From Bdellovibrionales bacterium (GTDB taxonomy: Bacteria; Bdellovibrionota; Bdellovibrionia; Bdellovibrionales; JAUICD01), in NCBI GenBank assembly GCA_965203275.1, contig OZ241865.1, positions 2,016,001 to 2,080,000 on the forward strand: 64,000 nucleotides of DNA. Direction: 5' to 3'. Made by a program: the position numbers and the translations under genes. Below the pieces are notes generated by a model that searched no databases, had not been told where the DNA came from, and saw nothing but the letters and a program-made list of their open reading frames with translations. This document shows, in pieces, positions 3,128 through 64,000 of this stretch (position 1 is the first letter of the stretch; each line of letters starts with the position of its first letter).

Positions 3128-4066
3128 TTCACTCAAAATGCATCAGCCGTCTTTTGCACTCAAAGTGAACTGGCCTCTGTTTCACTAAAAGTGGTCTGAC
3201 CTCTGGTCACTTTCTGGCGATGACCACGACGGCTCACGCCGTCGATAAAATGCTCATCGCCTAGTGTTGTTACATGGCAAGCTTCAGAGAAGCTTGCTGT
3301 CTGACCACTTTTAGTAATGAGGATCTCCTCGTTTTTTAACTACATGTTAGGGAAAAAGTTTTTTTTGATGCCGGGTTGCCGGATCCCAGATCCCGGATAA
3401 ACACGATGTTAAGGAAAAAGTTCATTCTTACACCTTTCAGCCCGACGGCTCTCGCCGTCGATCAAAGGCTAACTGCCTCAAAAGCCTGTTCACTTTGAGT
3501 AATGAGGATCTCCTCGTTTTTTAACTACATGTTAGGGAAAAAGTTTTTTTTGATGCCGGGTTGCCGGATCCCAGATCCCGGATAAACACGATGTTAAGGA
3601 AAAAGTTCATTCTTACACCTTTTAGCTCACGTCGTCGATCAAAGGCTGGCTACCTCAAAAGTCCGTTTACTTTTAGTAGAAAGTTAGTTGTTTCACTCAA
3701 AATGAGCCACACCTCTGGTGTGTTTTTGGGCATTGCTCTGACAGCTATCGCTGTCCAAAAAGAGCAATGCCGCAAAAAACTGCTCATTTTGAGTAGGGGA
3801 GGATCCTTTCGTCTCTTAACACCATGTTAGGGAAACAAGGTGTTCGTTTCTATGGATTTCTTTGAAAAGGTAAAGAATTTGGATTTGAAAATTAGAATTT
3901 CAGTGATTTCAATAAGTTTGTTTCACTAAAAGTAAACTAGCCTCTGGCTACTTTTGGACAATGACCGCAATGGCTTTCGCCATTGACAAAATGGTCATTG
4001 TCTCAAAAGTCCGTTTACTTTTAGTAGGGAGGATCCCTTCTTTTTTTAATACCATGTTAAGGAAAC
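3128..4066. repeat. Cluster of ~145-bp branched palindromic elements (family A) with GATCC-type bodies
   Basis: Full copies at ~3180-3356, ~3691-3835 and 3921-4065 plus truncated ends; local direct repeats 3319-3440/3499-3620 and 3830-3918/4060-4148. Confidence 0.9.
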
Positions 4067-4153
4067 AAGAAGTTCGTTTCTCTGGATTTCTTTGAAAAGG
4101 TAGAGAATTTGGGTTTGAAAATTAGAATTTCAGTGATTCCAATAAGTTAGTAT

Positions 4154-4545
4154 TGTAACTTTTGTATAAAAGTTACAGTATTAAGTGTTTGTAATTGTTA
4201 GACTTTTTTAGGTCGACTTTAAAAATTTCTAATTTTTCGTCTAACACAATTCTTATCGTTTATTATGACATAAAACTTTATATTTTTGTTAAAAAAAATC
4301 AAAAAAAGTGACATTTTGTATCAAAAAGAATCACTTTTTTGAATTTTTGTATCATCTTGAAACACTTTACCAATCTTAAAGACATAAGATCAGCAAAACA
4401 AACAATAAATTTTCATTTGTGTTTTATAACTTTTGCTTTGTTTGATTTTTCAAAGCAATTTTCTTGCAAAAATTTGCCTGTTTTTTACTCTTTCAAATTG
4501 TAACTTTTATACAAAAGTTACAGTGCTAAGTCCTTGAAATCACTT
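4154..4545. repeat. Two copies of a 24-bp palindrome TGTAACTTTT-N4-AAAAGTTACA with similar tails
   Basis: tgtaacttttgtataaaagttacagtattaagt at ~4154 and tgtaacttttatacaaaagttacagtgctaagt at ~4499. Confidence 0.7.
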
Positions 4546-4596
4546 AAGTCATTTTTTTGTACTCTCTAAAGGTATAGAGACAAATAAATGAACTAG

Positions 4597-5085
4597 TTTC
4601 ACTCAAAATAAATCATGCCTCTGGCATGTTTTCTGGCAGTTAGCCCGACGGCTTTCGCCGTCGATCAAAGGCTAACTGCCTAGAAAATCCATTTATTTTG
4701 AGTAGGGGGAGGATCTCCTCATTTTTTGACAGGATGTTAGGGAAAAAGAGTTTCATTTGCAGAATGCTTGCTTTTAAGGCAATGAAAGCACTGTTTCCTT
4801 AACATGGTGTTAAGAGAGAAGGAGATCCTTCCTACTCAAAATGAACAGGCTTTTGAGACATTGCTCTTTTTGGACAGCGATAGCTGTCAGAGCAAACGTC
4901 AGAAGGAGATCTTTTTCCTTAACATCGTGTCAAAAGAGGAAAGGATCCTTCCTACTAAAAGTGGTCAGGCTTTTGAGGCAATGACCATTTTGTCAAAGGC
5001 GAAAGCCTTTGCGGTCATTGCCCAAAAGTAGCCAGAGGCTAGACCACTTTTAGTGAAACAGAGGTCAGTTCATTTTGAGTGAAAA
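4597..5085. repeat. Cluster of family A palindromic elements in both orientations
   Basis: Copies at ~4597-4746, ~4794-4895 (truncated), ~4914-5058, then a stacked end fragment. Confidence 0.9.
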
Positions 5086-5220
5086 AAGCGTGAGTCGGGT
5101 TTAAGATAAACTCCAAAAACATAACATCAATAAGCCTGATGATGATTTTGATGTAGAACGTAAAGGATGAGTGAAGATACTTGTCCATTAAATCATTTTA
5201 ACAATATAAGGGGGTTTAAA

Positions 5221-5937: not shown

Positions 5938-5954
5938 TCCATTAATTCAAATAT

Positions 5955-5992
5955 AAGGCTATGGGTTTATCAGGCCCATAGCTTTTATTTTA
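5955..5992 (+). terminator. Intrinsic terminator after pilin
   Basis: aaggctatggg-tttatcagg-cccatagctt followed by T-rich tail. Confidence 0.65.
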
Positions 5993-6695: not shown

Positions 6696-7594
6696 AAGGA
6701 AATTTTTCCTTAACATCGTGTTAAAAAACGAGAGGATCCTTTTCCTACTAAAAGTGGTCAGGCTTTCTAGGTTGCCAGCTTTTGAGAAGGCGAAAGCCTT
6801 CGGCTGGCAAGCAGAAAGTGACCAGAGGTCAGACCACTTTTAGTGAAACAAAAGGAACTTTTTCCTTAACATGGTGTTAAGAGACAAGGAGATCCTTTCT
6901 ACTAAAAGTAAACGGACTTTTGAGGTAGCCAGCCTTTGATCGACGGCGAAAGCCGTCGGGCTGGCTATCCAAAAGTAGCCAGAGGCTAGTTTACTTTTAG
7001 TGAAACAAACTCCTTAACATTGTGTTAAAAAAGGAAAGGATTCTTCTTACTAAAAATAAACGGATTTTTGAGGTATTGCCTATTTTGTCAAAGGCGAAAG
7101 CCTTTGCAGGCAACACTCAAGGCGTAAGAAGGAACTTTTTCCTTAACATCGCGTCAAAAGAGGAAAGTATCCTTACTACTAAAAGTAAACGGATTTTTGA
7201 GGCAATCAGCCTTTGATCGACGACGATAAGCCGTCGAGCTAACTATTAGAAGGACATTTTCCTTAACATGGTGTTAAGAAACGAAGAGATCCTCCCTACT
7301 CAAAGTGAACAGGCTTTTGAGACAATGACCATTTTGTCAAAGGCGTAAAAAGTGAAATAAATATCTTGTTTCCTTAACATCGTGTAAAGAGACAAGAGGA
7401 TTTTTCCTACTAAAAATAAACGGATTTTTGAGGCAATCAGCCTTTGATCGACGGTGATAAGCCGTCGGGCTGATTGCCCAAAAACAGCTAGAAGCTGGTT
7501 TATTTTTAGTGAGACAAATGCGGTCATTGTCCAAAAGTGGCCAGAGGCCAGTTCACTTTGAGTGAAACAGAGGCTGGTTTATTTTTAGTGAAAA
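6696..7594. repeat. Cluster of family A palindromic elements (at least six heads, same orientation)
   Basis: Full copies at ~6705-6848, 6861-7005 and ~7369-7513, plus truncated copies and stacked ends. Confidence 0.9.
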
Positions 7595-8929: not shown

Positions 8930-9604
8930 ATGACAGAGAGAATTTTATTACAATTAACAATAGATGCTATTTTCAAAGCTTTTTTTGAAAATAGAAAAGA
9001 TCTTTTAATTTCACTGGTAGAGAATTTTGTACCTTTGCCTAAGGGTTCTGTGATAGAGGATGTTTCATTATTAAACACAGAGCTTCTTCCCGATAAGGTT
9101 CCAGACGAATACAAATCCTTTACTTTAGATTTGCGTGTGAAATTAAGAAGACAGGTCAGAGGCGTTCTTCAAGATACAGATATTGTCCATGTAGAAGTTC
9201 AAACAACAAGTCAAAAATTTTTTACAGATCGGATATTAGTTTATGCTTCTAGGGCTTATTCTGGTCAGATAAAGAAAGGCGAAGATTTTAATCAATTACT
9301 TCCTGTGTATTCACTTGTTTTTACAACAGCTAATTTAAAAGAATTTGCAGGGATAAAGGATTACTATCATATCTGCAATATCCGTCGGACAAAACCACCA
9401 GAAGTGATTATGTCTCGTGGATTGTGTTTTGTCATTGTGGAATTAGGCAAGTTTCAGTCAAGTTTGCATGAATTATTTGACAAAAAGGCAGATTGGTGTT
9501 ATCTTTTAAAGAACTCTGGTAATATGGATTTAAAGGAGTATACCAATTTTCAGAATAAAAGGGATCCTTCTTCTGGGATCTGGCAACCCGGCATCAGGTC
9601 CTAA
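8930..9604 (+). pseudogene. Rpn-family recombination-promoting nuclease / PD-(D/E)XK 'transposase_2', N-terminal part, interrupted by repeat insertion
   Basis: LTIDAIFKAFF, LDLRV...HVEVQ, DRILVYASRAYS and FVIVELGKF motifs; frame runs into repeat DNA at ~9561. Confidence 0.85.
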
Positions 9605-9756
9605 AACTGAACTTTTTCCTTAACATTGTGTTAAAAAAGGAAAGGATCCTTCCTACTAAAAATAAACGGATTTTTGAGGTATTGCTCTTTTTGGACAGCG
9701 TAAGCTGTCAGAGCAATGCCCAAAAACAGCCAGAGGCTGGTTTATTTTTAGTGAGA
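9561..9756. mobile_element. Composite insertion (GATCC-type body plus one full family A element) inside the rpn gene
   Basis: Flanked by direct repeat AGAATAAAAGG at 9552-9562 and 9754-9764. Confidence 0.8.
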
Positions 9757-9771
9757 ATAAAAGGAGGCGTT

Positions 9772-10218
9772 ATGGCAGAGGCAGCAAAGCATTTATGGAT
9801 ATTATCAAAAGATGAGACATTACAGGAACTTGCAATGGTGAAAGAGAGAGACAGAAAAGATCAAGCAGCCAGAGAAGATGATGCTTATGAGGAAGGGATG
9901 AAGAAAGGTCGTAAGGAAGGGATGGAGAAAGGTCGTAAGGAAGGGATGGAGAAAGGGATGGAAAAAGGGATGGAGAAAGGAATAGAAAAAGGGATGGAGA
10001 AAGGGATGGAGAAAGGAATGGAAAAAGGGATGGAAAAAGGGATGGAAAAAGGGATGGAGAAAGGAATGGAAAAAGGGATGGAAAAAGGGATGGAGAAAGG
10101 TCGTAAGGAAGGGATGGAGAAAGTAGCACAAAATATGTTGAAAGAAAATCTCAATATTTCATTGATCTCTACAATGACAGGTTTATCCAAAGATGACATT
10201 CTCAAGCTGAAAAAATAA
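9772..10218 (+). CDS. Rpn C-terminal part (RpnS-like small protein): (EKGM)n repeats plus C-terminal HTH-like tail
   Basis: AAGGAGG at 9761-9767 before ATG 9772; about 20 tetrapeptide repeats; VAQNMLKE...ISTMTGLS tail typical of Rpn C-termini. Confidence 0.75.
   Translation: MAEAAKHLWILSKDETLQELAMVKERDRKDQAAREDDAYEEGMKKGRKEGMEKGRKEGMEKGMEKGMEKGIEKGMEKGMEKGMEKGMEKGMEKGMEKGMEKGMEKGMEKGRKEGMEKVAQNMLKENLNISLISTMTGLSKDDILKLKK
9888..10122 (+). repeat. 12-bp coding VNTR (GARAARGGRATG)
   Basis: Tandem 12-mers encoding EKGM/KEGM/EKGR. Confidence 0.9.
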
Positions 10219-10333: not shown

Positions 10334-10508
10334 TTTCACTAAAAGTGGTCTAGCCTCTGGCTACTTTCTGGCGATGACCACGATGGCTTTCGCCATCGGT
10401 AAAATGGTCATCGCCTAGTGTTGTTACATGGCAAGCTTCAGAGAAGCTTGCTGTCTGACCACTTTTAGTAGGAGGATCTCTTCGTTTTTTACACGATATT
10501 GAGGAAAA
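10334..10508. repeat. Family A element with secondary ~36-bp hairpin insertion
   Basis: Same inserted tgttgttacatggcaagcttcagagaagcttgctgt as the copy at ~3180. Confidence 0.85.
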
Positions 10509-12650: not shown

Positions 12651-14357
12651 TCAGTTTTGAAGGCGACTTGGCATCATGACCTTTTTTCGACCTTTACCTG
12701 AAATAAATTGCCAATGGCCTCGTTTAATATATTTCACTATTTTTTTATCTCTCCACCTTCGAAAGAGGTTAGACAGTTGTGTGGCTTCAGAATGACTATC
12801 GCCTAAACCAATAAGTTCTCGTGCCTCTGAAGTAGTAATAAAGCCTTTTGTGCTATGTTGAAAAGCAAAGGCTCTTAATGCATCTTTAATTTGTTTTTCT
12901 TCTGCTGGAGTAAAAGATTGGCTAGCTTGACCTGTTAAAGCCACACCAACCCATCTACGAAGAAATATTTCATTATCGATAATAATAATAGGAGCATTTT
13001 GATGTTGAATTACCTCAAGGGCTATATCCGCATAGTAATCATCTAAATGTTCTAAAATAGATGACCATTTATGCCCTTGTACTGTTAAACGAACCAATGC
13101 CATTGCAATACGTGCATGATGTTCAGTAGGGAAATATTGATAAAATTGATCCATAAGAGATTTGAGATTTTTATTTTTGTGGTTGTTGTAAATTGTGATT
13201 TTCCATTTACCAAAGTAACGATGTTCTGAAAAATCAATTGTAGGTTCACGTCGTCCCGATTCTATACTGAGTCTGAAAATGCGATTTTTTCCTGTTCCTA
13301 ACTCATCAGTGATTCTTGCAGCCCTCAGTATAGTCATAAGAAGTTTGTTTTTGACATAAGTGTTTTTAGCAAACCATTGTTTTGCAAAAACTTTAGCTTC
13401 TAATGATGCATTGTTACGCACAGTTAAATGATCGGGACTTATGTCCACGATGATAGCTCCTTGTTCACGTTGATAGAGGGCATGAGCTACAGCATTGGCA
13501 AGAATTTCTCGAATAATCTTTGGTGGATAAGGGTATTCTTCTGTCACAGAAGCAGTATGTCCCTTAAGAATTGTCCCTTGTTTTTTTGTCCACGTTTGAA
13601 TTTGGGCAATAAAATCATCAGTTAAAATATGATAAACTCCCTTTTTTTCAGTGTTCTCTATAATGTCATCATTGGAATCGTACCTTGCAATACGAACTGG
13701 AAAATTGCCAAATAAAATGCCTGCTACCATTTTGTCCTTTAAACCAAGTCTTGCAAGAATGTCAGAAGAACTCAAAGTCGAAAGATCCTCAGGAAACTCA
13801 CTAGGGTCAGCCATTGCCATTTTTTGTGCAAAGCTTGAGATCAGTAGGGTGTCAATGGGACCATTCCATGGTTGGTTGGAAAAATCCTCTCCTGGAAGTT
13901 TCATAGCAAGAGCAATACGTTCATCAGATTTCATTTGAGTGCTTGAAGTGCCAGAACGTCTATAAGCTTCACCTCTCCATTCTGTCACATCACCAGGATT
14001 TTGAATGTCCAAAAAAATACAATATGAACTTTGAATCTTTTTAACAATGACGCTTTTGACTGCTTGATATGGTGATAAAAATTGATTGATTTGCTGGCTT
14101 ATTTCCTCCTCAGTTTTTTTAGCCCATTTTTTATGATGATGAAGCAAGTTTCCTTTATCATCAATGCCAATAACTAACCAGCCCCCCTGTAGAGATTCAT
14201 GGTTAGCAATAGCTGAAATATCTTTGCCATACTTTTGATTCCATGTAGATTTTAACTCAAGATAAGGATAGTCGATCTCATGTAAACGACTTGCTTTCAT
14301 ACGAGACAGTAGCTTTTTTAAACTGGGTTTTTTAGTGATTTTATAATCCGACGACAT
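12651..14357 (-). CDS. AlbA_2 (Schlafen-like) domain plus HATPase_c_4/RecG-C-like domain plus C-terminal winged helix
   Basis: LELKS...ISAIAN...GGWLVIGIDDKG; AYRRSGTSS; YPPKIIREILANAVAH; DELGTG; C-terminal HTH-like segment. Confidence 0.8.
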   Translation of the reverse strand: MSSDYKITKKPSLKKLLSRMKASRLHEIDYPYLELKSTWNQKYGKDISAIANHESLQGGWLVIGIDDKGNLLHHHKKWAKKTEEEISQQINQFLSPYQAVKSVIVKKIQSSYCIFLDIQNPGDVTEWRGEAYRRSGTSSTQMKSDERIALAMKLPGEDFSNQPWNGPIDTLLISSFAQKMAMADPSEFPEDLSTLSSSDILARLGLKDKMVAGILFGNFPVRIARYDSNDDIIENTEKKGVYHILTDDFIAQIQTWTKKQGTILKGHTASVTEEYPYPPKIIREILANAVAHALYQREQGAIIVDISPDHLTVRNNASLEAKVFAKQWFAKNTYVKNKLLMTILRAARITDELGTGKNRIFRLSIESGRREPTIDFSEHRYFGKWKITIYNNHKNKNLKSLMDQFYQYFPTEHHARIAMALVRLTVQGHKWSSILEHLDDYYADIALEVIQHQNAPIIIIDNEIFLRRWVGVALTGQASQSFTPAEEKQIKDALRAFAFQHSTKGFITTSEARELIGLGDSHSEATQLSNLFRRWRDKKIVKYIKRGHWQFISGKGRKKVMMPSRLQN

Positions 14358-14728
14358 ACCGACGACATCCCCTTTAATAATTAAGTAATTTTAAATAGTT
14401 ACAAATCCAAACTTCAAGCTTTTAACCCTCAAAAAGGGCGACGACATACCGACGACATCCTCTTTAATAATTAAGTAATTTTAAATAGTTATAAATCCAA
14501 ACTTCAAGCTTTTAACCCTCAAAAAGGGCGACGACATACCGACGACATCCCCTTTAATAATTAAGTAATTTTAAATAGTTACAAATCCAAACTTCAAGCT
14601 TTTAACCCTCAAAAAGGGCGACGACATACCGACGACATCCCCTTTAATAATTAAGTAATTTTAAATAGTTACAAATCCAAACTTCAAGCTTTTAACCCTC
14701 AAAAAGGGCGACGACATACCGACGACAT
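14349..14728. repeat. 90-bp tandem repeat (4 full units plus 20 bp) overlapping the start codon of the AlbA_2 gene
   Basis: Units start at 14349, 14439, 14529, 14619 and 14709; unit 2 differs at two positions. Confidence 0.95.
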
Positions 14729-15110
14729 CTTTTATGGTGATTATATTATCAAATAATGGGATAACTTGTAAATTCTAGAATTTAATTATACAAACACACA
14801 ATAAAATCTTTGCTAAAATAAATTGGCCTATAAGCTTACCAATAGAGTAATAGATGAAAGATAAACATGATCACGGAAGAAACATGAAAGCAACAAAGCA
14901 TTTATTTGTCTTGAACTTACTAAAAGTAGCCAGAGGCCAGTTCATTTTGAGTGAAAAAAATTGACAAGATAAAGAGCTAAGAGATTATATTGATCATCAA
15001 TAACAATTTAAAAGGGATATTTTGATAAGTCGATAAAAAATACCCTTTTTATTTTTACATCATTTTTCATTATCATTTTTACTTAATAATATATAGCTTT
15101 TTTAAAAAGC

Positions 15111-15177: not shown

Positions 15178-15760
15178 TTTCCTTAACATTTCACTCAAAA
15201 TGCATCATGCCTCTGGCATGTTTTCTGGCAGTTAGCCCGACGGCTACCGCCGTCATCAAAGGCTAACTGCCTAGAAAATCCATTTATTTTGAGTAGGGGA
15301 GGATCCTTTTATTTCTTTACACTATGTTAAGGAAAAAGTGTTTTTATTGTCTTAGGAGCAAGCTCAATGCAATAGAGGAACTTTTTCCTTAACATCGTGT
15401 CAAAAGAGGAAAGGATCCTTCCTACTAAAAGTGGTTAGGCTTTCTAGGCGATGACCATTTTACCGATGGCGAAAGCCATCGTGGTCATCGCCAGAAAGTG
15501 ACCAGAGGTCAGACCACTTTTAGTGAACCAACGGCATTGCTCTTTTTGGACAGCGATAGCTGTCAGAGCAAACATCAGAAGGAAATCTTTTTCCTTAACA
15601 TTGTGTTAAGAAATGAGGACATCCTCCTTCCTAAAATTGAACAGGCTTTTGAGGCAGTTAGCCTTTGATCGACGGCGACAAGCCGTCGGGCTAACTGCCC
15701 AAAAATAGCCAGAGGCTAGTTCAATTTTAGGGAAACAGAGGCTAGTTTACTTTTAGTGAA
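15178..15760. repeat. Family A cluster inserted between promoter and nuclease paralogue 1
   Basis: Three near-full copies plus fragments; last element end abuts AAGGAAAAATATG. Confidence 0.9.
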
Positions 15761-16903: not shown

Positions 16904-19900
16904 ATGACCTTCAATCAACTACTCCAATATATTAGAGACAAGGCGAAACACTTACGGGAAAAAGGCGATTTATTTGAAAGAGCTATTAAAAACTTTCTAA
17001 AAAAATCACCTGAACATAATTTTGAAAATGTTTGGATGTGGAGCGATTGGCCAGACCATAAAAAGTATGATATCCAAAAACAAGATATGGGCATCGACCT
17101 TGTCGCTAAAGAAAAAGAAACTGGAAACTACATTGCTATTCAATGCAAATGTTTTAATGAAGACACCCAAATCACTAAAAAACATATTGATAGCTTTTTA
17201 GCTCATTCAGGTAAGAAGCCTTTTACCTCAAGGTTGATCGTCACTACAACTGACCAATGGAATCAGGATGCTATCAAAGCAACTAAAAATCTTGATAAGA
17301 GATGTAAGATTTTAACCTCAAGTGATCTAGAAGAGTTAGAGTTTGACTGGACTTTAAAAGGTGATGTGCAACAAAAAGAAAAACTAACTCCAAAAGACCA
17401 TCAAGAAGATGCACTCCGTAAAGCCAAAGAACACTTTCAGAATCATAACAGAGGTAAGCTAATTATGGCTTGCGGGACTGGCAAAACCTTAACATCCCTC
17501 CACATTGCTGAAAAAGTTACCTCTAAAAATGGCATTATATTATTTTTAGCCCCTTCTATTTCTTTGGTATCTCAAGCATTAAGGGTCTATGCATATCAAA
17601 GGCAACACACTCAAAACTACTTAGTGGTTTGCTCTGATAACAAGGCAGGCAAAGATTCTGATGGAGTGGATGTAGATGATTTGCAAATATCTCCTACGAC
17701 AGATGCCTTCAAAATAGCAAAGATGCTTAGAAAAACATCCAATACAAGAACAGTTGTTTTCTCAACATATCAATCATTGGATAAAATCAAAGAAGCTCAA
17801 AGTAAGGGCAGTCCAAAGTTTGATCTTGTGATCTGTGACGAAGCCCATCGCACCACAGGTATAGAGGCTACTTCAAAAGAAAATGGAAAAACTCAAGGCA
17901 ACTTTTTTACTTTGATTAATAAGGATGATTATATCAAAGCTTATAAGAGGCTTTATATGACAGCAACTCCTCGTATATACAGCGATACAGCTCAAACAAA
18001 AGCACAGAAAGATCAAGTAGAGCTTTGTTCTATGGATGACGAAAGCATTTATGGTAAAGAGTTTTATAGATTGGACTTTTCAAAAGCTATAGAAAGAAAG
18101 CTTTTATCCGATTATAAAGTGATTATCCTTACAATTGATCAAAAGTATATCAGTGATCATATTCAAGGTTCATTAAAGGATACAGTACTTAATGATGCCT
18201 CTAAGTTAGTGGGTTGTTATAGAGCATTGAAAGATCAAGGGGAAGGAGCTAAAGGAGTTATGCTTAAAAAAGCAGTTGCTTTTCTAAATACAATTAAAGA
18301 TTCTAAAGAATGTGCTAAGTGCTTTTCGCAAGTAGTGGATAGTTTAAAGGAAAATCAAAACGACGGGTTTACATGTCGAACAAAACACATAGACGGCACT
18401 GACAATACAATTGAAAGAAATAAAAAACTAGAATGGTTGAAAGAAGATGCAGGACAAACAGAAGCTCAAGAACATATATGCCGTATATTGTTTAACTCAA
18501 AATGCCTCACAGAGGGCATTGATGTCCCCAGCTTAGATGCTATTTTGTTTTTACAACCTAGGAAATCTCAAGTAGACGTTGTGCAAGCTGTGGGTCGAGC
18601 TATGAGGAAGTCAAAAGATAAAAAATATGGCTATGTGATCCTTCCTGTGGTGATACCTGCCGGGAGCGACGCAGTGAAGGCACTTGATAATAATGAGACT
18701 TATAAAGTGGTTTGGCAAGTTTTAAATGCCTTGCGTTCACATGATGATAAATTTAATGCCATGATCAATGATATTAACTTAAATAAAAAAGCCCCAGAAA
18801 AAATCAATATCGTAGGTGTAGGTAGCCCTAGCGATGGCATAAGTGATGTAGACAAAGAAAGTATTACTCAAGCTACATCAACTCAATTAAGTTTATTACC
18901 ATCAGGGCATGAAAAAATATATGCCAAGATTGTAGAAAAGTGCGGTGATCGACTTTATCAAGATAAGTGGATTGCTAAAGTTAAAACTTTTTATGAAACT
19001 ATCACAACTCGAATAAATAGCCTCTTAGAAAAAGATATAAAAGTAAAAACAGAATTTACAAAATATCATAAAAGTTTAAAGTCTATTATTCATGCTGAGA
19101 TCAGCCAAGAAGATTCTGTCTCTATGTTAGCAGAGCATCTGCTGACTAAAAGAGCTTTTGATAAAATCTTTGAAGGGTATGAGTTTTCAAAGAATAATCC
19201 TATTTCTGTCGCCATGGATAAAACAATTAGAAGACTACAAGGCTATGCCATAGAAAATGAAATCAAAGAACTTGAAACCTTCTATAATGCAATCAGTAAG
19301 AGAGTTGAAGGGATCGATAACAGTGCCGGTCGTCAAAAGATTATCAAGGAACTTTACGAGGACTTTATCAAAACAGCCTTCCCTAAAACAGCAGAAAAAT
19401 TAGGCATAGCTTATACACCGATTGAAATTGTGGACTTTATTTTAAAGTCAGCAGATATCCTTTTGAAGCAGGAATTTAATGGCAGAGGGCTAACCAGTGA
19501 GGGTGTGCATATTATTGATGCATTTGCTGGCACAGGTATTTTTATTAACCGATTGATTAATAATAAAAACTTGATTTTAGATAAGGACTTAGCGAGGAAA
19601 TTTGAAAAAGAACTCCATGCCAATGAAATATTGTTATTGCCGTATTATGTAGCCTCTATCAATATTGAGGAGGCTTATCATAACCGCATAAGTGGTAATT
19701 ATCAACCCTTCCCTGGTATTGTTTTGACAGATACGTTTAACTTGGTCAGTGGACTGACACAAGGGCATTTTGAAGATCACTTTAAGCAAAACAAGGATAG
19801 GATAGAAAGACAAAAGCAAGCACCTATTCAAGTGATTGTAGGCAATCCCCCTTATTCAGGTGGGCAACAGTCTGAAAACGACGGCAATAAAAATACTTCT

Positions 19901-21601
19901 CATCCAGAACTAGAAGAGAGAATAAAAGAAACTTATGTTAAAGAAAGCAATGTGCAGAATAAAAATGCTCTATATGACTCTTATATAAAGGCTATTCGGT
20001 GGGCTTCAGATCGGATTGAAAAACAAGGTATTATTGGTTTTGTCCACAATGGTTCGTTAATAGATGGTAGAGCTACTATCGGGCTTAGAAAGTGCCTAGT
20101 TAAAGAATTTGATGCTATTTATTGTTTTAATTTAAGAGGTCATATTAAGAAGTTTGACAAAAAAGAAGGTGAAAATATCTTTGGTCAAAAATCCATGTGT
20201 TCCATAGCCATAACTTTTCTGATTAAGCATAATCAAGTAGAGCAGAAGCAAAAGAAAGATGCTGTGATTAAATACTATGATATTGGTGATTATTTAAAGC
20301 GAGAGCAAAAACTTAAAATTATTGATGATTTTACTTCTATCCAAAAGATAAATTGGCAAAATATCACACCAGGTCCTTATGGGGATTGGATTCATCAGAG
20401 AGATCCATCTTTTGATAGCTTCCTGCCTTTAGGTGATAAAAAGTCAAAAGAAAGTATTTTTACTTTACATAGTAGAGGAGTTTGTACATGTAGAGATAAC
20501 TGGGCTTATAACTTTAGTACAAAAAAGGTTAAAGATAATATGCAGAGGATGATTGACTTTTATAATCAAGAGCTTGAGAGGTTAAAAGATCAAAAGATCA
20601 CTAAGAAAAACTTTGATGCCATTGCCAACCTAGATAAAGAAAAAGTAAAGTGGTGTAATCGTCTCACACAAGATTTTATAAGACAAAAAAGAGGAGCATT
20701 TGATAAAGAACAAATTAGGCCATCAAGTTATCGCCCTTTTACAAAATCTTATCTTTATTTTGATAAAATGTTTAATAATGCCATCTATCAAAACCCGAAA
20801 ATTTTCCCTGAACCTACTACAGAAAATAAAATAATTTGTGTTAGTGGAGTAGGTGCAAATAATTTTTCTGTCCTAATAACAGATCAAATTTCAAGTGTTG
20901 ACTATATCAACAAAACTCAATGCTTCCCACTTTATTATTACGACATCTCAGATCAAAAAGCTACTAAAAGAGATAGCATTACAGACTTTGCCTTACAACA
21001 ATTCCAAAAGCACTATAAAGATCAATCCATCATCAAAGAAGATATATTTTATTATATTTATGGATTGCTACATTCTAAAGATTATCAACAAAGGTATAAA
21101 AACAACTTAACTAAGGAGTTACCACGCATTCCTTTTGTCCCACAATTTAAAGACTTCTCAAAGATAGGTCAACAGCTTGCCAATTTGCATTTAAACTACG
21201 AAGACCAAAGACAAAATCCAAAGGTACATATTAAAAAAGACAATCAAACTGTCCTTTTAAGCTCTCTCAAAACAGAAGACTTAAAGGTTAAGAAAATGAA
21301 ACCTAACAAAAAAGATCAATCAAAGATTATATTTAATGATAGCATCACCATTGAGAATATCCCACAAGAAGCGTGGAATTATGAAATCAATGGACAATCT
21401 GCCATTAAGTATGTTACAGATAGATACCAAGTGAAGACAGACAAAGACTCTCAAATCACAAACAATCCAAATGATTATTCAGAGGATCCAGCTTATATTC
21501 TTAAATTGCTTTTAAGTGTGATCACTGTTTCCCTTAAAACTCAAAAGCTTATAGATACCTTGCCTGCCATTAACTTTGACAAGCTCGCTCAAGCATCTTA
21601 A
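16904..21601 (+). CDS. Type ISP single-polypeptide restriction-modification enzyme (LlaGI/LlaBIII-like)
   Basis: Mrr-like GIDLVAK..AIQCK; Walker A MACGTGKT; DEAH; VQAVGRAMRK; MTase motifs DAFAGTG and NPPY; C-terminal TRD; 1565 aa. Confidence 0.95.
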   Translation: MTFNQLLQYIRDKAKHLREKGDLFERAIKNFLKKSPEHNFENVWMWSDWPDHKKYDIQKQDMGIDLVAKEKETGNYIAIQCKCFNEDTQITKKHIDSFLAHSGKKPFTSRLIVTTTDQWNQDAIKATKNLDKRCKILTSSDLEELEFDWTLKGDVQQKEKLTPKDHQEDALRKAKEHFQNHNRGKLIMACGTGKTLTSLHIAEKVTSKNGIILFLAPSISLVSQALRVYAYQRQHTQNYLVVCSDNKAGKDSDGVDVDDLQISPTTDAFKIAKMLRKTSNTRTVVFSTYQSLDKIKEAQSKGSPKFDLVICDEAHRTTGIEATSKENGKTQGNFFTLINKDDYIKAYKRLYMTATPRIYSDTAQTKAQKDQVELCSMDDESIYGKEFYRLDFSKAIERKLLSDYKVIILTIDQKYISDHIQGSLKDTVLNDASKLVGCYRALKDQGEGAKGVMLKKAVAFLNTIKDSKECAKCFSQVVDSLKENQNDGFTCRTKHIDGTDNTIERNKKLEWLKEDAGQTEAQEHICRILFNSKCLTEGIDVPSLDAILFLQPRKSQVDVVQAVGRAMRKSKDKKYGYVILPVVIPAGSDAVKALDNNETYKVVWQVLNALRSHDDKFNAMINDINLNKKAPEKINIVGVGSPSDGISDVDKESITQATSTQLSLLPSGHEKIYAKIVEKCGDRLYQDKWIAKVKTFYETITTRINSLLEKDIKVKTEFTKYHKSLKSIIHAEISQEDSVSMLAEHLLTKRAFDKIFEGYEFSKNNPISVAMDKTIRRLQGYAIENEIKELETFYNAISKRVEGIDNSAGRQKIIKELYEDFIKTAFPKTAEKLGIAYTPIEIVDFILKSADILLKQEFNGRGLTSEGVHIIDAFAGTGIFINRLINNKNLILDKDLARKFEKELHANEILLLPYYVASINIEEAYHNRISGNYQPFPGIVLTDTFNLVSGLTQGHFEDHFKQNKDRIERQKQAPIQVIVGNPPYSGGQQSENDGNKNTSHPELEERIKETYVKESNVQNKNALYDSYIKAIRWASDRIEKQGIIGFVHNGSLIDGRATIGLRKCLVKEFDAIYCFNLRGHIKKFDKKEGENIFGQKSMCSIAITFLIKHNQVEQKQKKDAVIKYYDIGDYLKREQKLKIIDDFTSIQKINWQNITPGPYGDWIHQRDPSFDSFLPLGDKKSKESIFTLHSRGVCTCRDNWAYNFSTKKVKDNMQRMIDFYNQELERLKDQKITKKNFDAIANLDKEKVKWCNRLTQDFIRQKRGAFDKEQIRPSSYRPFTKSYLYFDKMFNNAIYQNPKIFPEPTTENKIICVSGVGANNFSVLITDQISSVDYINKTQCFPLYYYDISDQKATKRDSITDFALQQFQKHYKDQSIIKEDIFYYIYGLLHSKDYQQRYKNNLTKELPRIPFVPQFKDFSKIGQQLANLHLNYEDQRQNPKVHIKKDNQTVLLSSLKTEDLKVKKMKPNKKDQSKIIFNDSITIENIPQEAWNYEINGQSAIKYVTDRYQVKTDKDSQITNNPNDYSEDPAYILKLLLSVITVSLKTQKLIDTLPAINFDKLAQAS

Positions 21602-23803: not shown

Positions 23804-23958
23804 TTTCCTTAACATTTCACTCAAAATGCATCATGCCTCTGGCATGTTTTCTGGCAGTTAGCCCGACGGCTACCGCCGTCATCAAAGGCTAACTGCCCAA
23901 AAATAGCCAGAGGCTAGTTCAATTTTAGGGAAACAGAGGCTAGTTTACTTTTAGTGAA
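23804..23958. repeat. Hybrid family A element, deletion derivative of the 15178-15760 cluster
   Basis: Identical to both ends of that cluster, joined at GGCTAACTGCC. Confidence 0.85.
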
Positions 23959-26489: not shown

Positions 26490-27975
26490 AAGTAAAAAAG
26501 ACGGACTTTTGAGGTAGCCAGCCTTGATGAAGGAATTTTTCCTTAACATGTGGTCAAGAGACGAGAGGATCCTCCTCTACTAAAAGTAAACGGACTTTTG
26601 AGGGAGTTAGCCTTTGATCGACGGCGATAAGCCGTCGGGCTGGCTACCCAAAAGCAACCAGAGGCTGGTTTACTTTTAGTGAAACAGCTAGCTCCCTAAC
26701 CCCACCCCCCGCCCTTCGATTCTGCTTTTCCATTTGTATATTTTTTATGAGTGGAATGCGGAGTCAGGCTTCCGAAGTCCTCAATTTTTTTCACTCAAAA
26801 TGAACTGGCCTCTGGCCACTTTTGGGTAGCCAGCCCGACGGCTCTCGCCGTCGTAAAAGGCTGGCTACCTCAAAAGCTTGTTCATTTTGAGTAGGGCGAA
26901 TCTCCTTGCTTCTTACACCATGTTAAGGAAACAAGATATGCTTCTAAAATTTTTTGGGGAGCAAGCGGGTCTGCGGAAGATCTTCAGCCTGCCCCCGCCT
27001 CCCACTCATAATAATATTTATGTTTTTTTGAAAATTACGCAGAATCTAAAAAAGAATAAAAAAAACAAAAAAACGAACTCTTGTTTCCTTAACATGGTGT
27101 AAAGGAATAAGAGGATCCTCCTCTACTAAAAGTAAACGGACTTTTGAGGGAGTTAGCCTTTGATCGACGGCGATAAGCCGTCGGGCTAACTGCCCATTAC
27201 CATTCGCATCCAGATTTTTTATTTGTAAGCACAGAATTTCAAAGCCAAATGAGTAAAAAGTGATAAAAACTAATGATATAAATGGGAAAGAGTCTGGTCT
27301 CAGGGCAATGATTTTGAAATTTAAGAAATAAATTGAAGATCCAGCTCAAAAGTAGCCAGGGGCTAGTTCAATTTTAGGGAAACAAAGGCATGATGCATTT
27401 TGAGTGAAAATGACGGTCAGTTTACTTTTAGTGAAACAGCTAGCTCCCTAACCCCACCCCCCGCCCTTCGATTCTGCTTTTCCATTTGTATATTTTTTAT
27501 GAGTGGAATGCGGAGTCAGGCTTCCGAAGTCCTCAATTTTTTTCACTCAAAATGAACTGGCCTCTGGCCACTTTTGGGTAGCCAGCCCGACGGCTCTCGC
27601 CGTCGTAAAAGGCTGGCTACCTCAAAAGCTTGTTCATTTTGAGTAGGGCGAATCTCCTTGCTTCTTACACCATGTTAAGGAAACAAGATATGCTTCTAAA
27701 ATTTTTTGGGGAGCAAGCGGGTCTGCGGAAGATCTTCAGCCTGCCCCCGCCTCCCACTCATAATATTCATGTTTATTTGAGATTTACGCAGAATCTAAAA
27801 GAGAATAAAAAAAAACAAAAAAATGAAACTCTTTTTCCCTAACATCCTGTTAAAAAACGGAAGGATCCTTTCTACTAAAAGTGGTCAGGCTTTCTAGGTT
27901 GCCAGCAACTGAGAAGGCGAAAGCCTTCGGCTGGCAACCAGAAAGTAGCCAGAGGCTAGACCACTTTTAGTGAAA
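26490..27975. repeat. Repeat cluster: family A elements nested in long-hairpin family B, with a ~340-bp direct duplication (offset 752 bp)
   Basis: ~26668-27013 matches ~27420-27765; further family A copies at ~26539, ~27083 and ~27835. Confidence 0.9.
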
Positions 27976-40619: not shown

Positions 40620-41083
40620 TAGAATTTTTAGTGAAAAAGATAAGAAGGCGAATAGCCTTCGGCTGGCAACCAGAAAGTGACCAGAGGTCAGTTCACTTTG
40701 AGTGGAGCAATTAACTCCCTAACCCCACCTACCACCCTTTGATTCTGCTTCTCCATTTTGTCTGTATGAGTAGAATGCGAAGGCAGGCTTCCGAAGTCCT
40801 CAACCTTCGCTTGCTTTCAAAGGAGCAAGCGGGTCTGCGGAAGATCTACAGCCTGCCTTCGCATCTCACTCATAATATTCTTTATTTTTTGAGAGTTACG
40901 CAGAATCTAAAAAAAATAAAAAAACAAAAAAAGGAACTTTTTCCTTAACATGTGGTCAAAAAACGAAGAGATCCTCCCCTACTAAAAGTAAACGGACTTT
41001 TGAGACATTGCTCTTTTTGGACAGCGATAGCTGTCAGAGCAATGTCCAAAAGTGACCAGAGGTCACTTTACTTTTAGTGAAAC
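40620..41083. repeat. Repeat cluster: family A fragments, one uninterrupted family B long hairpin (~40741-40908), one full family A copy
   Basis: gattctgc...tatgagt...atgcgaaggcaggct pairs with agcctgccttcgcat...actcata...gcagaatc. Confidence 0.88.
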
Positions 41084-50308: not shown

Positions 50309-51336
50309 GTTTCACTCAAAGTGAACTGACCTCTGGTCACTTTCTGGTTGCCAGCCGAAGGCTACCGCCTTCTCAAATGCTGGCAACCTAGAAAGCCTGT
50401 TCACTTTGAGTAGGGAGGATCTCATCGTTTCTTAACAAGATGTTAAGGAAACAGTTCCTTCTGATGCCGGGTTGCCAGATCTCGGATCCCGGATCCCGGA
50501 TCCCAGATCCCAGAAGAAGGATCTCCTTGTCTTTTAACACCATGTTAAGGAAAAAGTCAATTCTAGGACCTGATGCTGGGTTGCCAGATCCCGGATCCCA
50601 GAAGAAGGATCTCCTTGTCTTATAACACCATGTTAAGGGTTTGTTTCACTCAAAATGCATCATGCCTCTGGCATGTTTTTGGGCAATGACCGCAAAGGCT
50701 TTCGCCTTTGACAAAATGGTCATTGCCTCAAAAATCTATGCATTTTGAGTAGGGCGGATCTTCTTGCTTCTTTACACCATGTTAAGGAAAAAGTCATTTC
50801 TAGGACCTGATGCCGGGTTGCCATATCCCGGATCCCGGATCCCGGATCCCAGATCCCGGATCCCGGATCCCAGAAGAAGGATCTCCTTGTCTTTTAACAC
50901 CATGTTAAGGGTTTGTTTCACTCAAAATGCATCATGCCTCTGGCATGTTTTTGGGCAATGACCGCAAAGGCTTTCGCCATTGACAAAATGGTCATTGCCT
51001 CAAAAATCTATGCATTTTGAGTAGGGCGGATCTTCTTGCTTCTTTACACCATGTTAAGGAAACAAGATATGCCTCTAAAATATTTTTGGGGAGCAAGCGG
51101 GCTTACAAATGAAACTCTGTTTCCTTAACATCGTGTAAAGAGACAAGAGGATTCTTCCTACTAAAAATAAACGGATTTTTGAGGCAATCAGCCTTTGATC
51201 GACGGCGAGAGCCGTCGGGCTGATTGCCCAAAAACAGCCAGAGGCTGGTTTATTTTTAGTGAAAAAGATAAGAAGGCGATAGCCTTCGGCTGGCAACCAG
51301 AAAGTAGCCAGAGGCTAGACCACTTTTAGTGAGACA
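50309..51336. repeat. Cluster of family A elements and GGATCCC-heptamer bodies with internal duplication
   Basis: Family A copies at ~50310, ~50645, ~50916 and ~51120; (CC[G/A]GATC)n runs at ~50475-50510 and ~50828-50870. Confidence 0.9.
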
Positions 51337-62171: not shown

Positions 62172-62293
62172 TTTGACCTCTATTTTAAGCTATTTTATCT
62201 TGAAATATGATTGATTGTTAAATTATATTTGTTGTATCTTCTTAACAGCAAGTATAAAATAAACTTACTTAAAAAGTATAGGATTGTCAACAG

Positions 62294-63166
62294 ATGAAAT
62301 GGTTTGATTTTCGTAAAACTTTTCTTATATTGTTTGTAGTTGTTTTACCGCTACTCTCTCTTAATTTACAGCATAAGTCTTTAGATTGGTATGCACAACC
62401 TTTTGTCATACTAGCTTCTTATGTCCAAGATTTTTACTCTGGTATGACACAGAATATGCAACATACAATATCTTTTTATTCTAGCTTAATTCACACTCAA
62501 AAAGAAAACATCCAGCTAAAAAAAGACTTACTTAAAATGAATACATTGCAACTCCAATTAAAAGAAGTACAAATAGAAAATGAACGGCTAGAACAGATTT
62601 TAAATTTTAAAAACACTGTAGAACAGCCAACTCTTGCTGCTAGGGTCATAGCCCATGATTTGCTTTTTGGAACACACTCAACTATTCGTGTCAATCGAGG
62701 TAAGCAAGATGGAGTGGCTATAAACCAAGCTGTTATTACACCATTAGGGGCTGTAGGGGTTATACTCTATGTGGAAGATTCTTTTTCAGATATTCTTGTA
62801 TTGATAGATAGTCTTTCTACTATAGATGCTATTGTGCAGAGATCTCGTGTGCGTGGGGTGATCTCTGGTGGACAAAAAGGACTTTGTTCTTTGCAATATC
62901 TTAAGAGAACAGACGATATTCAAAAAGGTGATCTTATTATTGCAACAGGCTTAGATAATATTTTCCCTAAAGGCACGCCTATAGGCCATGTCATTAATGT
63001 GGAAAAAGAAAGCTACAGTATCACTCAGTATGTAGAAGTCAAACCTCTTGTAGACCCTTATCGTTTAGAAGAAGTATTGATTGTATTTAACTCCCCTTCC
63101 ACTACTGAAAAGTCTAACCAAGAAACAAAACTACTAGCAGGAAAGAGTGTATATTATGATCAATAA
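62294..63166 (+). CDS. mreC: Rod shape-determining protein MreC
   Basis: ENERLEQIL; AARVIA; VNRGKQDGV; TGLDNIFPKG; LEEVLI. Confidence 0.93.
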   Translation: MKWFDFRKTFLILFVVVLPLLSLNLQHKSLDWYAQPFVILASYVQDFYSGMTQNMQHTISFYSSLIHTQKENIQLKKDLLKMNTLQLQLKEVQIENERLEQILNFKNTVEQPTLAARVIAHDLLFGTHSTIRVNRGKQDGVAINQAVITPLGAVGVILYVEDSFSDILVLIDSLSTIDAIVQRSRVRGVISGGQKGLCSLQYLKRTDDIQKGDLIIATGLDNIFPKGTPIGHVINVEKESYSITQYVEVKPLVDPYRLEEVLIVFNSPSTTEKSNQETKLLAGKSVYYDQ

Positions 63167-63686
63167 ATGGAGTCTTTATACCAATGCTCTTTCTATTTTT
63201 TTGTTATTTGTTTTTTTTTGTTGCCTGCAAACTGCCCTTTTACCATACTTTATAAAAGTATCTTATAGTCCTAATTTATGGATTTGTTTTATAGTCTATA
63301 TAGCTCTTTTTAGAAATCTCTTTGAAAGTCTTATCTGGATTTATTTAAGCAGTTTTATAGGAACTATTTTTTCATACGCTCCTTTGAGTTTTTTTCTCAT
63401 CTGTCAGATCATTATTTTATTTTATGTGAGACGGATGAGTTTATTTGGTAGACAAGGTAAACATTTTTCAGTATTTTACAGTAGCTCTATTATTTTGTTG
63501 CATATTAGTATTTATGTGCTTTCTTTATCATTAAATCTCCAAGTCTCATATCCATTTGAAATTTTAGCTATTCTATGTCAAGTCTTATGGGCTTTGATTT
63601 TAGGTTATCCTATTTATCGTTTACTTAAATATATTGATGATGTTACAGATCAATCAACTTTCTTAGTGAGTTATAAAAAGTCCTAG
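63156..63686 (+). CDS. mreD: MreD-like membrane protein
   Basis: About five TM segments; QT...PNL motif; overlaps mreC end. Confidence 0.65.
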   Translation: MINKWSLYTNALSIFLLFVFFCCLQTALLPYFIKVSYSPNLWICFIVYIALFRNLFESLIWIYLSSFIGTIFSYAPLSFFLICQIIILFYVRRMSLFGRQGKHFSVFYSSSIILLHISIYVLSLSLNLQVSYPFEILAILCQVLWALILGYPIYRLLKYIDDVTDQSTFLVSYKKS

Positions 63687-63692
63687 GTTTTT

Positions 63693-64000
63693 TTTCACTA
63701 AAAGTGGTCTGACCTCTGTTTCACTCAAAGTGAACTGGCCTCTAGCCACTTTTGGACGATGACCACGTTTGTCTCACTAAAAATAAACCAGCCTCTGTTT
63801 CACTCAAAGTGAACTGGCCTCTGGCCACTTTTGGACAATGACCGCAAAGGCTTTCGCCTTTGACAAAATGGTCATTGTCTCAAAAGCCTGTTCACTTTGA
63901 GTAGGGAGGATCTCTTCGTTTCTTAACACCATGTTAAGGAAAACATCCTTCTAATAGTTAGCCCGACGGCTCTCGCCGTCGATCAAAGGCTAACTGCCTC
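63693..64000. repeat. Family A cluster with stacked ends; runs off the window end
   Basis: Three truncated heads then a full copy at ~63798-63942. Confidence 0.9.

What the first reader, a model, noticed from the sequence alone, without database searches (positions are those of the whole stretch)
3128..64000. ~145-bp branched palindromic element whose four stems covary and are mixed combinatorially
Seen: roughly 30 or more full or partial copies (exemplars 3921-4065 and 6861-7005) share one architecture. Read from TTTCACT: stem P1 encloses hairpin P2 (loop TCT) and stem P3; P3 encloses hairpin P4; then an AGGATC-type linker and a terminal hairpin TTAACA-N3-TGTTAAGGAAA. Each stem has several alleles changed on both arms. 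P1: AAAAGTAAAC, AAAAGTGGTC, CAAAGTGAAC, CAAAATGAAC, CAAAATGCAT, AAAAATAAAC. P2: TAGCC, TGACC, TGGCC, CAGCC, CATGCC, CACACC. P3: CAATGACC, CAGTTAGCC, TAGCCAGCC, CAATCAGCC, TTGCCAGC, CATTGCTC. P4: CGACGGC, CAAAGGC, CAATGGC, GAAGGC, GACAGC. Alleles of different stems occur in different combinations. Inference: fold rather than sequence is under selection or is copied arm-to-arm. I do not recognise this as a described REP, ERIC or MITE family; it may be a new structured mobile or regulatory element.
Basis: partly seen in the sequence, partly recalled or inferred. Interest (0 to 1): 0.88.

Follow-up and report, generated by a model that had tools for sequence, protein, structure and literature searches.

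The report
One-ended self-nesting hairpin DNA repeat
A 145-base non-coding DNA unit that folds into a three-armed hairpin fills about 6% of a sponge-associated bacterial genome and seems to spread by making sharp new joints at one end only, often into older copies of itself, with no known copying enzyme found in the genome.

Summary
The window has 21 full-length copies; the genome has about 610 full copies and 2,130 fragments covering 6.1%. The four stems covary strongly (31 of 42 pairs compensated); the terminal hairpin does not. Stem alleles are mixed but linked, not independent. No Rfam family matches; the element was found only in one Bdellovibrionales genus. New here: the element is polar. 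The TTTCACT end makes sharp joints to any DNA; the far end carries ragged tails, target loss and no target duplication. Copies nest at hot spots in older copies, and copies with matched P1 arms recur far more often (55% vs 16%). Best reading: a non-autonomous mobile repeat copied from a folded single strand, primed at a DNA 3' end; nesting and recombination make the mosaics. No reverse transcriptase, HUH, IS110 or TnpB was found. It is tied to an Avd-like four-helix-bundle gene in both genomes. Earlier scan notes reported this family in other windows of this genome.

The parts
3921..4065 (+). Exemplar full copy.
   Evidence: 167.9 bits
3921..3927 (+). Left end (LE, TTTCACT): the reactive end that makes sharp new joints; usually preceded by T/C-T-G and 0-8 extra bases
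3925..4025 (+). Three-way-junction core: P1 3925-3937/4013-4025, P2 3938-3950, P3 3951-3966/3993-4009 with one bulged base at 4003, P4 3968-3985 (loop reads G..A on the bottom strand)
   Evidence: sequence; covariation
4026..4053 (+). Hypervariable linker, nearly unlinked to the core alleles
   Evidence: (NMI 0.03-0.15)
4054..4065 (+). Right end (RE): near-invariant 12-mer ATGTTAAGGAAA; followed by a ragged pyrimidine-rich tail of about 5-20 nt
3128..3835 (+). Nested cluster: stacked left-end fragments, partial copies, two heptamer arrays, one full copy (3691-3835)
4597..5084 (.). Tail-to-tail cluster: full copy on +, nested copies on - (outer 1-26 / inner full / remainder 42-145)
6705..7593 (-). 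Cluster of 11 fragments with three full copies, including exemplar 6861-7005
9552..9761 (-). Insertion that splits a PD-(D/E)XK (Rpn-type) gene; carries tail, heptamers and a piece of another copy; empty paralogues exist
   Evidence: (joint 9556-9760)
10334..10491 (+). Copy interrupted by a 36-nt hairpin insert (same insert at 3265-3300)
15189..15760 (.). Tail-to-tail cluster with three full copies
23815..23958 (.). Deleted version of the 15189 cluster
26501..27975 (.). Copies interleaved with a second, unrelated dispersed repeat (family C)
40641..41082 (-). Partial and full copy
50310..51332 (.). Cluster with four full copies and three heptamer arrays
63693..63942 (+). Three stacked left-end fragments (1-26, 1-49, 3-26) followed by a full copy; a four-helix-bundle gene lies just beyond the window end (genome 2,080,458-2,080,760)
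3374..3394 (+). Example of a polar heptamer array (GGATCCC-type) on the right-end side of a copy; others at 3559, 9575, 12584, 50484, 50579, 50830

Best explanation
A non-autonomous selfish repeat that is copied in a polar, one-ended way from a folded single strand. Shown: the four-stem fold is conserved; the left end joins sharply to unrelated DNA; the far side is ragged, loses target DNA and shows no duplication; copies land at hot spots inside older copies; fold-intact copies are the ones that recur. Inferred: the bottom strand (most simply an RNA made by read-through and trimmed to a few bases past the P1 stem, else a single-stranded DNA) is the template; a chromosomal 3' end at a nick or break pairs with its last few bases and is extended through the element; the new strand rejoins the target by microhomology, or by longer homology when the target is another copy. 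Nesting, homology-based rejoining and ordinary recombination among about a thousand copies swap the P1/P2 and P3/P4 modules, and the need for a paired P1 filters the chimeras. The polymerase is not identified: a host polymerase, a helper on an unassembled plasmid or phage, or a recently lost reverse transcriptase; the Avd-like four-helix-bundle protein is a candidate cofactor.
For: Polarity: outer ends of 451 clusters are 527 LE, 237 RE, 138 internal; LE-LE 115, RE-RE 2; genes with paralogues cut at a cluster leave an orphan half at LE in 56 cases and at RE in 9, and 47 of the 59 LE-side cuts lie within 13 nt of the element. Clean filled/empty pairs show 0-8 extra bases at LE, 0-29 nt of target lost, and tails or captured pieces at RE (by eye among 81 candidate pairs, 19 nested cases). 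No target duplication: mean flank match 4.05 vs 3.93-4.06 in shuffles, whereas an IS256 copy inserted in one element has a clear one. Target 3' ends differ in sequence between hot spots. Self-targeting: 601 of 1,426 distinct left ends sit in another copy, 131 at position 26; each hot spot has its own extra bases repeated across different host alleles. Fold needed: 55% of 424 vs 16% of 63. Bottom strand: P4 loop G..A in 522 of 542 (the parse required it); single stem mismatches read G-T on the bottom strand 34 times against 15 on the top. Neighbouring tandem copies differ (20 different, 3 same), against rolling-circle multimers. Copies are young: 92 singleton changes over about 47,000 core positions. 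Linear group II intron retrohoming gives one fixed and one error-prone junction (PMC3280974, abstract), and such RTs do microhomology joining (10.1101/2022.03.14.484287, abstract).
Against: No reverse transcriptase in G000 (PF00078, 0 candidates; four RTs of relatives give no tblastn hit below E 0.15), nor Ku, AEP primase or DinB. No RNA evidence exists either way. Rare variants show a symmetric C>T/G>A spectrum with no RT- or DGR-type bias. The strand signal is weak: bottom folds lower in only 49 of 80 as RNA, and the terminal hairpin tolerates its mismatch better on the top strand. The LE-LE excess may reflect loss of head-to-head palindromes, and tail-to-tail spacers cluster at 47-49 and 56-57 nt, so many are copies of a few composites; in a 400-kb sample of G001 the excess is small (LE 39, RE 35; LE-LE 2, RE-RE 0 of 40 clusters). 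Only 5 of 15 P1-mismatched nested copies match their outer fragment. Repeated junctions may be products of recombination between copies, not new insertions.
Confidence: 0.45

Rival explanations
1. REP/REPIN-like movement by an HUH (Y1/Y2) enzyme acting on the folded single strand: it cuts near the left end, holds the element's 5' end as a phosphotyrosine and hands it to any 3'-OH; the enzyme is now lost, on an unassembled replicon, or too divergent to detect.
For: One-ended joints to arbitrary 3' ends fit the strand-transfer route discussed for TnpA-REP, which also cuts at a distance from the hairpin (PMC3479197, passages). BIME-like mosaics, insertion into older copies and inverted doublets are known for REPINs (PMC3116915, passages); 72 tail-to-tail pairs here. 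A GTAG lies just after P1 in many copies. G001 has one IS200 TnpA.
Against: No Y1_Tnp in G000 (control rang in 6 of 14) and no Y2_Tnp (control silent, so weak). GTAG is not kept (GTAA and GGAG forms). Extra bases at LE start with G or T and vary from 0 to 8 nt with no common cut dinucleotide. The G001 TnpA locus carries no copy of the element.
Confidence: 0.22
2. No dedicated enzyme: the stable fold stalls replication or invites cleavage, and host repair (template switching, microhomology annealing, RecA recombination) copies pieces between sites; stems are perfected by arm-to-arm correction, and copies may be tolerated or kept as mRNA stabilisers or protein-binding sites.
For: No mobilising enzyme found. 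Flanks are reshuffled: head and tail are nearly unlinked (0.077 vs 0.059) and only 3 clusters leave both halves of a cut gene collinear. Internal deletions between repeated AAAAGT boxes and tandem duplications occur. Other unrelated repeats have also expanded.
Against: Does not explain why new joints fall at the left end within a few bases, nor the near-invariant end sequences, the kept bulge and junction strands, or the better spread of fold-intact copies. No strong gene-context preference that a terminator or stabiliser would show.
Confidence: 0.18
3. A MITE moved by a DDE transposase through its imperfect 11-13 bp terminal inverted repeats, later scrambled by adjacent deletions and recombination.
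For: The ends resemble each other (TTTCACTAAAA or TTTCCCTAAAA against TTTCCTTAACA) and often read TG...CA. [quoted passage not shown]
Against: No duplication signal even in young single copies; ragged ends; ends of the resident IS256- and IS1634-like elements are unlike it; a DDE enzyme would not select for internal stems.
Confidence: 0.07
4. An attC-like folded substrate for a tyrosine recombinase, or an RNA scaffold with a 3' flank-derived guide (TnpB- or bridge-RNA-like) that homes to matching sites.
For: Four AAA-R-Y boxes and a fixed bulged base recall attC logic (recalled). The right end shares ATGTTAA with XerD sites (recalled). Junction memory at hot spots looks like flank-guided homing. 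G000 and G001 each have a XerD-like and a small tyrosine recombinase.
Against: Neither recombinase reaches the integron-integrase cut-off (54-55 vs 265 bits); G002 lacks the element yet has 7 such genes; recombinase products would be precise. No IS110; the only TnpB-domain hit is the tail of a CRISPR Cas12. Internal linker and flank barely covary (4.34 vs 4.20 +/- 0.04).
Confidence: 0.08

Closest known systems
REP / BIME / REPIN elements with RAYT (TnpA-REP) (PMC3116915 and PMC3479197, passages read; PMC3337134, PMC2817692, PMC3733652 listing only)
   Same: Hundreds of intergenic palindromic copies, mosaic clusters, insertion into older copies, inverted doublets, lineage-specific, probably moved as a folded single strand, no target duplication.
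   Different: 145-nt three-way junction instead of a 20-40 nt hairpin; no conserved GTAG tag; no RAYT or other Y1 enzyme in the genome; single copies are polar with one sharp and one ragged end.
Orphan 100-400 bp repeats without a known enzyme: Bacillus cereus bcr1-18 (PMC6542083, passages) and Rickettsia palindromic elements (PMC10969869, passages)
   Same: About 150 bp, structured, restricted to one lineage, mobile by inference, enzyme unknown.
   Different: No sequence match; about 610 full copies against at most 130 for bcr1; no TTTAT motif; not in-frame coding inserts; self-nesting and modular mosaics.
Non-LTR retroelement / SINE-type insertion and linear group II intron retrohoming (PMC3280974 and 10.1101/2022.03.14.484287, abstracts; SINE features recalled)
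   Same: One fixed end, one error-prone end with extra bases, microhomology and target loss; capture of flanking sequence on one side; no enzyme of its own.
   Different: No RT in the genome, no poly(A) or tRNA-derived head, no intron domains, no RNA shown.
Four-helix-bundle (PF05635 / TIGR02436; 23S rRNA IVS protein, Avd-like by recalled family relationship) cassettes with heptamer arms; DGR Avd is an RT partner (PMC6182149, passages)
   Same: Multi-copy, enzyme-less mobile unit in the same genomes; the element follows 29 of 34 gene ends in G000 and sits inside the gene at codon 67-68 in both G000 and G001.
   Different: The cassette is widespread without the element (24 matches in G004 main contigs, 23 in G021); no adenine-biased mutagenesis; no RT.
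Prokaryotic MITEs (PMC10969869, passages)
   Same: Short, non-coding, high copy, imperfect terminal inverted repeats.
   Different: No target-site duplication, no matching transposase ends, ragged right side.

Membership tests
REP/REPIN-RAYT | RAYT (Y1 HUH) gene in the genome, flanked by the repeats | tested here: not met
   PF01797: 0 in G000; G001 has one IS200 TnpA with no copy in its locus
REP/REPIN-RAYT | Conserved GTAG tetranucleotide at the foot of a short hairpin | tested here: not met
   GTAG after P1 alternates with GTAA and GGAG
REP/REPIN-RAYT | Inverted doublets and mosaic clusters | tested here: met
   72 tail-to-tail against 8 head-to-head neighbours; 451 of 659 clusters have more than one fragment
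MITE (DDE) | Terminal inverted repeats | tested here: inconclusive
   8-10 of 11 bases match between the ends
MITE (DDE) | Target-site duplication of fixed length | tested here: not met
   (4.05 vs 3.93-4.06)
MITE (DDE) | Cognate transposase with the same ends | tested here: not met
   IS256- and IS1634-like ends differ; only multi-copy families were examined
IS110/IS1111 bridge or seek RNA | DEDD recombinase in the genome | tested here: not met
   PF02371 0 in G000; PF01548 0 of 2
IS110/IS1111 bridge or seek RNA | Internal guide that covaries with the target flank | tested here: not met
   4.34 vs 4.20 for the tail, no excess for the other three comparisons of note
IS91 / rolling circle | Y2 transposase | tested here: inconclusive
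   PF04986 0 of 5, but the control rang nowhere
IS91 / rolling circle | Identical head-to-tail multimers | tested here: not met
   3 same, 20 different
Retroelement (SINE-like, group II, DGR) | Reverse transcriptase available in the cell | tested here: not met
   none in G000; G001 has group II and retron RTs; plasmids and phages not assembled
Retroelement (SINE-like, group II, DGR) | One fixed and one ragged junction with target loss and one-sided capture | tested here: met
Retroelement (SINE-like, group II, DGR) | RNA intermediate | not testable with these tools
   no RNA holder listed
Retroelement (SINE-like, group II, DGR) | DGR-type adenine-specific variation | tested here: not met
Integron attC | Integron integrase and same-strand cassette arrays | tested here: not met
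   copies lie on both strands throughout the genome
OMEGA (TnpB/IscB) scaffold | TnpB or IscB gene | tested here: inconclusive
   PF07282 hits only a CRISPR Cas12; PF14239 0 of 5 with silent control
Known Rfam RNA | Score above a family's gathering threshold | tested here: not met

The most novel reading that the evidence does not exclude
The element is a bacterial SINE-like 'break patch': a structured RNA whose 3' end captures broken chromosome ends and is copied onto them without any recognisable reverse transcriptase, by a host polymerase or an unrecognised enzyme, with the Avd-like four-helix-bundle protein as RNA-binding cofactor. Its 3' read-through bases would act as a memory that sends progeny to the same position in other copies. 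This would be a new route of RNA-templated mobility in bacteria and might also explain how four-helix-bundle cassettes, heptamer arrays and rRNA intervening sequences spread.
Probability: 0.15. Interest if true: 0.92.

Novelty: new variant of a known kind. Interest (0 to 1): 0.62.

Why it matters
Many bacterial repeat families (bcr, Rickettsia palindromic elements, heptamer arrays, rRNA intervening sequences) have no known mover. This one offers about a thousand young copies, measurable selection on fold, mapped hot spots and junction rules in two genomes, so the question 'what copies an orphan repeat?' becomes testable. If the one-ended priming model holds in a genome without reverse transcriptase, HUH or matching DDE enzyme, a new mobilisation chemistry or a new use of a host polymerase is at work. 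It also shows a repeat reshaping a small symbiont genome, cutting genes at its left end.

Tried and rejected
Guide-target covariation between linker and flank: first seen by eye, nearly vanished on shuffling. DGR-type adenine mutagenesis: not seen. Rolling-circle multimers: not seen. Target duplication: none. Orientation to replication: 312 vs 292, but the GC-skew landmarks are lopsided so the test is weak. Co-distribution of the element with four-helix-bundle and PD-(D/E)XK expansions in three of five family genomes looked like support and was withdrawn: the G004 copies lie on three small contigs, the largest of which has a G001-like composition and a second rplN 98% identical to G001's, so they are probably mis-binned. 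CRISPR link: four cas1 loci; no spacer matches the element, the 94 hits at the first array come from a copy inside my interval. Heptamer words as origin of the P3 arm: one of eight words matches one allele (35 copies at one position), inconclusive; a first try found no arms. No RNA holder listed. Laid contigs gave no clean strain-level empty site; the 9556-9760 joint can come from empty paralogues. Literature searches found no description of this family; ISfinder was not available and supplements were not read. The proteome was not scanned as a whole: only 14 named families were searched for an enzyme.
Full report
Setting. The window is G000:C1:2,016,001-2,080,000 of a single 2.57-Mb contig, 35% G+C. 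A pattern scan returned the element from a record titled as a Bdellovibrionales genome, and runs recorded as sponge metagenomes hold a quarter of the words of a repeat-rich stretch (4 runs, one study; one was laid and covers 21 of 30 bins thinly).

Observation. Confirmed. The window has 64 fragments (7.4% of its bases), 21 full-length by covariance model. The genome has 613 copies of 140-150 nt and 2,130 fragments covering 6.1%, spread evenly on both strands; 226 of 2,130 fragments overlap called ORFs, some of them spurious. Arms match within P1, P2, P3 and P4 in 424, 492, 497 and 505 of 522 copies, against 76-89 expected. On 47 copies from this genome and relatives, 31 of 42 pairs show two-sided change and 97.3% of cells pair. 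The terminal hairpin does not covary. Alleles are mixed (70 combinations in 386 fully matched copies) but linked in two modules, P1+P2 and P3+P4; linker, terminal loop and tail are almost unlinked to the core.

Is the fold selected? The P1 arms lie 85 nt apart yet are more tightly linked (0.68) than P1 and the nearer P3 (0.44). Cores with matched P1 arms occur at two or more independent sites in 55% of 424 copies, mismatched ones in 16% of 63. The simplest reading is that only fold-intact copies are amplified; the alternative is that mismatched copies are merely young recombinants. Strand evidence is modest and favours the bottom strand: G..A loops on P4 (partly imposed by the parse) and 34 against 15 wobble-type mismatches.

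Distribution. The model finds it in G000, G001 and G004 of 151 order genomes and in no other of 151 phylum genomes. The G004 copies are probably mis-binned from a G001-like organism, so the range shown is one genus. A 400-kb sample of G001 has 75 fragments, 46 full (2.4%). No Rfam, plasmid, phage, viral or metagenome match was confirmed.

Junctions. This is the main new result. Filled and empty paralogous sites show LE joined with 0-8 extra bases, 0-29 nt of target missing, and on the RE side a 5-20 nt tail or a longer captured piece joined through a few shared bases (about ten clean cases read by eye among 81 candidates, many of which are not true empty sites). There is no target duplication. 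Of 451 clusters, outer ends are LE 527, RE 237, internal 138; LE-LE 115, RE-RE 2. Where a gene with paralogues is cut, an orphan half abuts LE 56 times and RE 9 times, and only 3 clusters keep both halves collinear (repeated composites are not independent events). Reciprocal crossing-over between copies would leave halves at both ends equally, so new joints form at LE and sequence is lost on the RE side. Caveats: head-to-head pairs may be purged as palindromes, and G001 shows little LE-LE excess.

Self-targeting. Of 1,426 distinct left ends (about 60 may be chance matches, by calculation), 508 lie in a same-strand copy and 93 in an opposite one; hot spots are 26 (131), 133 on the opposite strand (82), 142-143 (71), 22 (45), 111 (22) and 85 (19). 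Each hot spot has its own extra bases, repeated across different alleles of the host copy that share only 2-4 bases at the joint. Either the template carries a short memory of its flank and returns to the same position, or composites are re-shuffled by recombination close to the joint. Tails are linked to what follows them (0.19 vs 0.06), hardly to the copy before them (0.08 vs 0.04), while LE extras are modestly linked to P1 (0.12 vs 0.04). Nesting plus homology-based rejoining thus gives a direct route to the mosaics.

Partner genes. No Y1, Y2, IS110, RT, IscB, Ku, AEP primase or DinB family was found in G000 (the Y2 and IscB controls were silent). The TnpB-domain hit is a CRISPR Cas12. The two tyrosine recombinases are XerD-like and a short form, not integron integrases. 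IS256- and IS1634-like ends differ. The assembly is 90% complete by markers and holds no plasmid. One gene is closely tied: a 101-aa four-helix-bundle protein (PF05635, TIGR02436; weak hit to XCC0516), with 32 full or partial matches. RE follows 29 of 34 gene 3' ends within 140 nt, against 108 of 1,710 genes overall; 210 of 317 heptamer arrays are followed by RE in one polarity. In both G000 and G001 the element also sits inside this gene at codon 67-68, bottom strand in the gene's sense (in G001, 24 loci chosen for having the gene were read). Against a causal tie: the cassette is multi-copy without the element in G004 main contigs, G021, G025 and others, most intact G001 genes read are not followed by RE, and one ancestral insertion could explain the shared site. 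The family relationship to DGR Avd is recalled; that Avd is a pentameric RT partner is from PMC6182149 (passages).

Mechanism. I commit to polar copy-in from a folded bottom strand primed at a chromosomal 3' end (0.45). Shown: fold conservation, polarity, ragged far end, no duplication, hot spots, better spread of intact folds. Inferred: the template, its nature (RNA trimmed to a few bases past P1 fits the 4 + 0-8 base overhang), and the polymerase. The HUH route (0.22) explains one-ended transfer to any 3'-OH (PMC3479197, passages) but has no enzyme and no common cut site. Passive host repair (0.18), DDE MITE (0.07) and recombinase or guide-RNA models (0.08) fit less well.

Comparison and novelty. 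It lives like REP/BIME/REPIN repeats and bcr or Rickettsia palindromic elements, and its junctions look like those of non-LTR retro-insertion, but it fails the defining tests for REPIN, MITE, IS110, IS91, attC and DGR. Nine literature searches found no account of it; subscription papers, ISfinder and supplements were not seen. Papers seen: passages of PMC3116915, PMC3479197, PMC6182149, PMC10969869, PMC6542083, PMC4679880; abstract and outline of PMC3280974, PMC11708052, 10.1101/2022.03.14.484287; others as listings only. Earlier notes of this scan describe the same family in other windows of this genome; they are not independent support. One gave the lead to the four-helix-bundle tie, which I tested.

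Verdict. A real, very abundant, young, genus-restricted structured repeat; a new variant of the orphan intergenic repeat kind with an unusual one-ended behaviour and no identified enzyme. Interest 0.62.

Noticed in passing
G000:C1:1838840-1839145 and 31 other places; one copy just past the window end: Multi-copy four-helix-bundle gene with heptamer arrays and an RBS-sequestering hairpin; in G025, G026, G031 and G035 two such genes sit head to head around a near-perfect palindrome.
   Followed up: partly
window 26694-26784, 27446-27536, 40717-40803: A second dispersed structured repeat (family C, about 200 bp, roughly 40 copies by k-mer count); related motifs seen by eye in G001 and in a G001-like contig of G004. 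The element often inserts in it.
   Followed up: no
window 4140-4560: Further 110-250 bp intergenic repeats with 25-30 copies, unrelated to the element.
   Followed up: no
window 8930-10218: PD-(D/E)XK (Rpn-type) gene split by the element; 14 PF12784 matches in G000, 5 in G001, 0-1 in the other three family genomes; a second 62-member cluster includes proteins that look Rpn/YhgA-like (recalled).
   Followed up: partly
G000:C1:235349-245700, 369700-376800, 1990534-1995500, 2266383-2278444: Four CRISPR-Cas loci (two adjacent Cas12-like genes, a type I-like set, two Cas9-like genes, by sequence look); two cas1 loci look broken, and element copies abut two arrays and lie in the Cas12 locus.
   Followed up: partly
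window 3265-3300 and 10419-10454: The same 36-nt hairpin insert interrupts the element between positions 85 and 91 in several copies (about 20 by k-mer count).
   Followed up: no
window 14347-14730: Tandem array of a 90-bp unit overlapping the start of a Schlafen/AlbA-domain gene (12651-14357).
   Followed up: no
window 31789-32352: Short 187-aa tyrosine recombinase with an orthologue in G001; G003 and G004 have no PF00589 match at all.
   Followed up: partly
G004:C1, C4, C11: These contigs appear mis-binned from a G001-like organism: second rplN 98% identical to G001's, closer tetranucleotide profile for C11.
   Followed up: yes
L201:2369-2725 (G004:C6): Four-helix-bundle gene with an in-frame insert of about 54 nt near codon 50, unrelated to the element; several G004 copies are split at the same place.
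   Followed up: partly
window 1-1330: Stretch with no ORF of 100 aa; looks like a decayed gene or IS remnant.
   Followed up: no
window 16904-21601: Type ISP restriction-modification enzyme, 1,565 aa.
   Followed up: no
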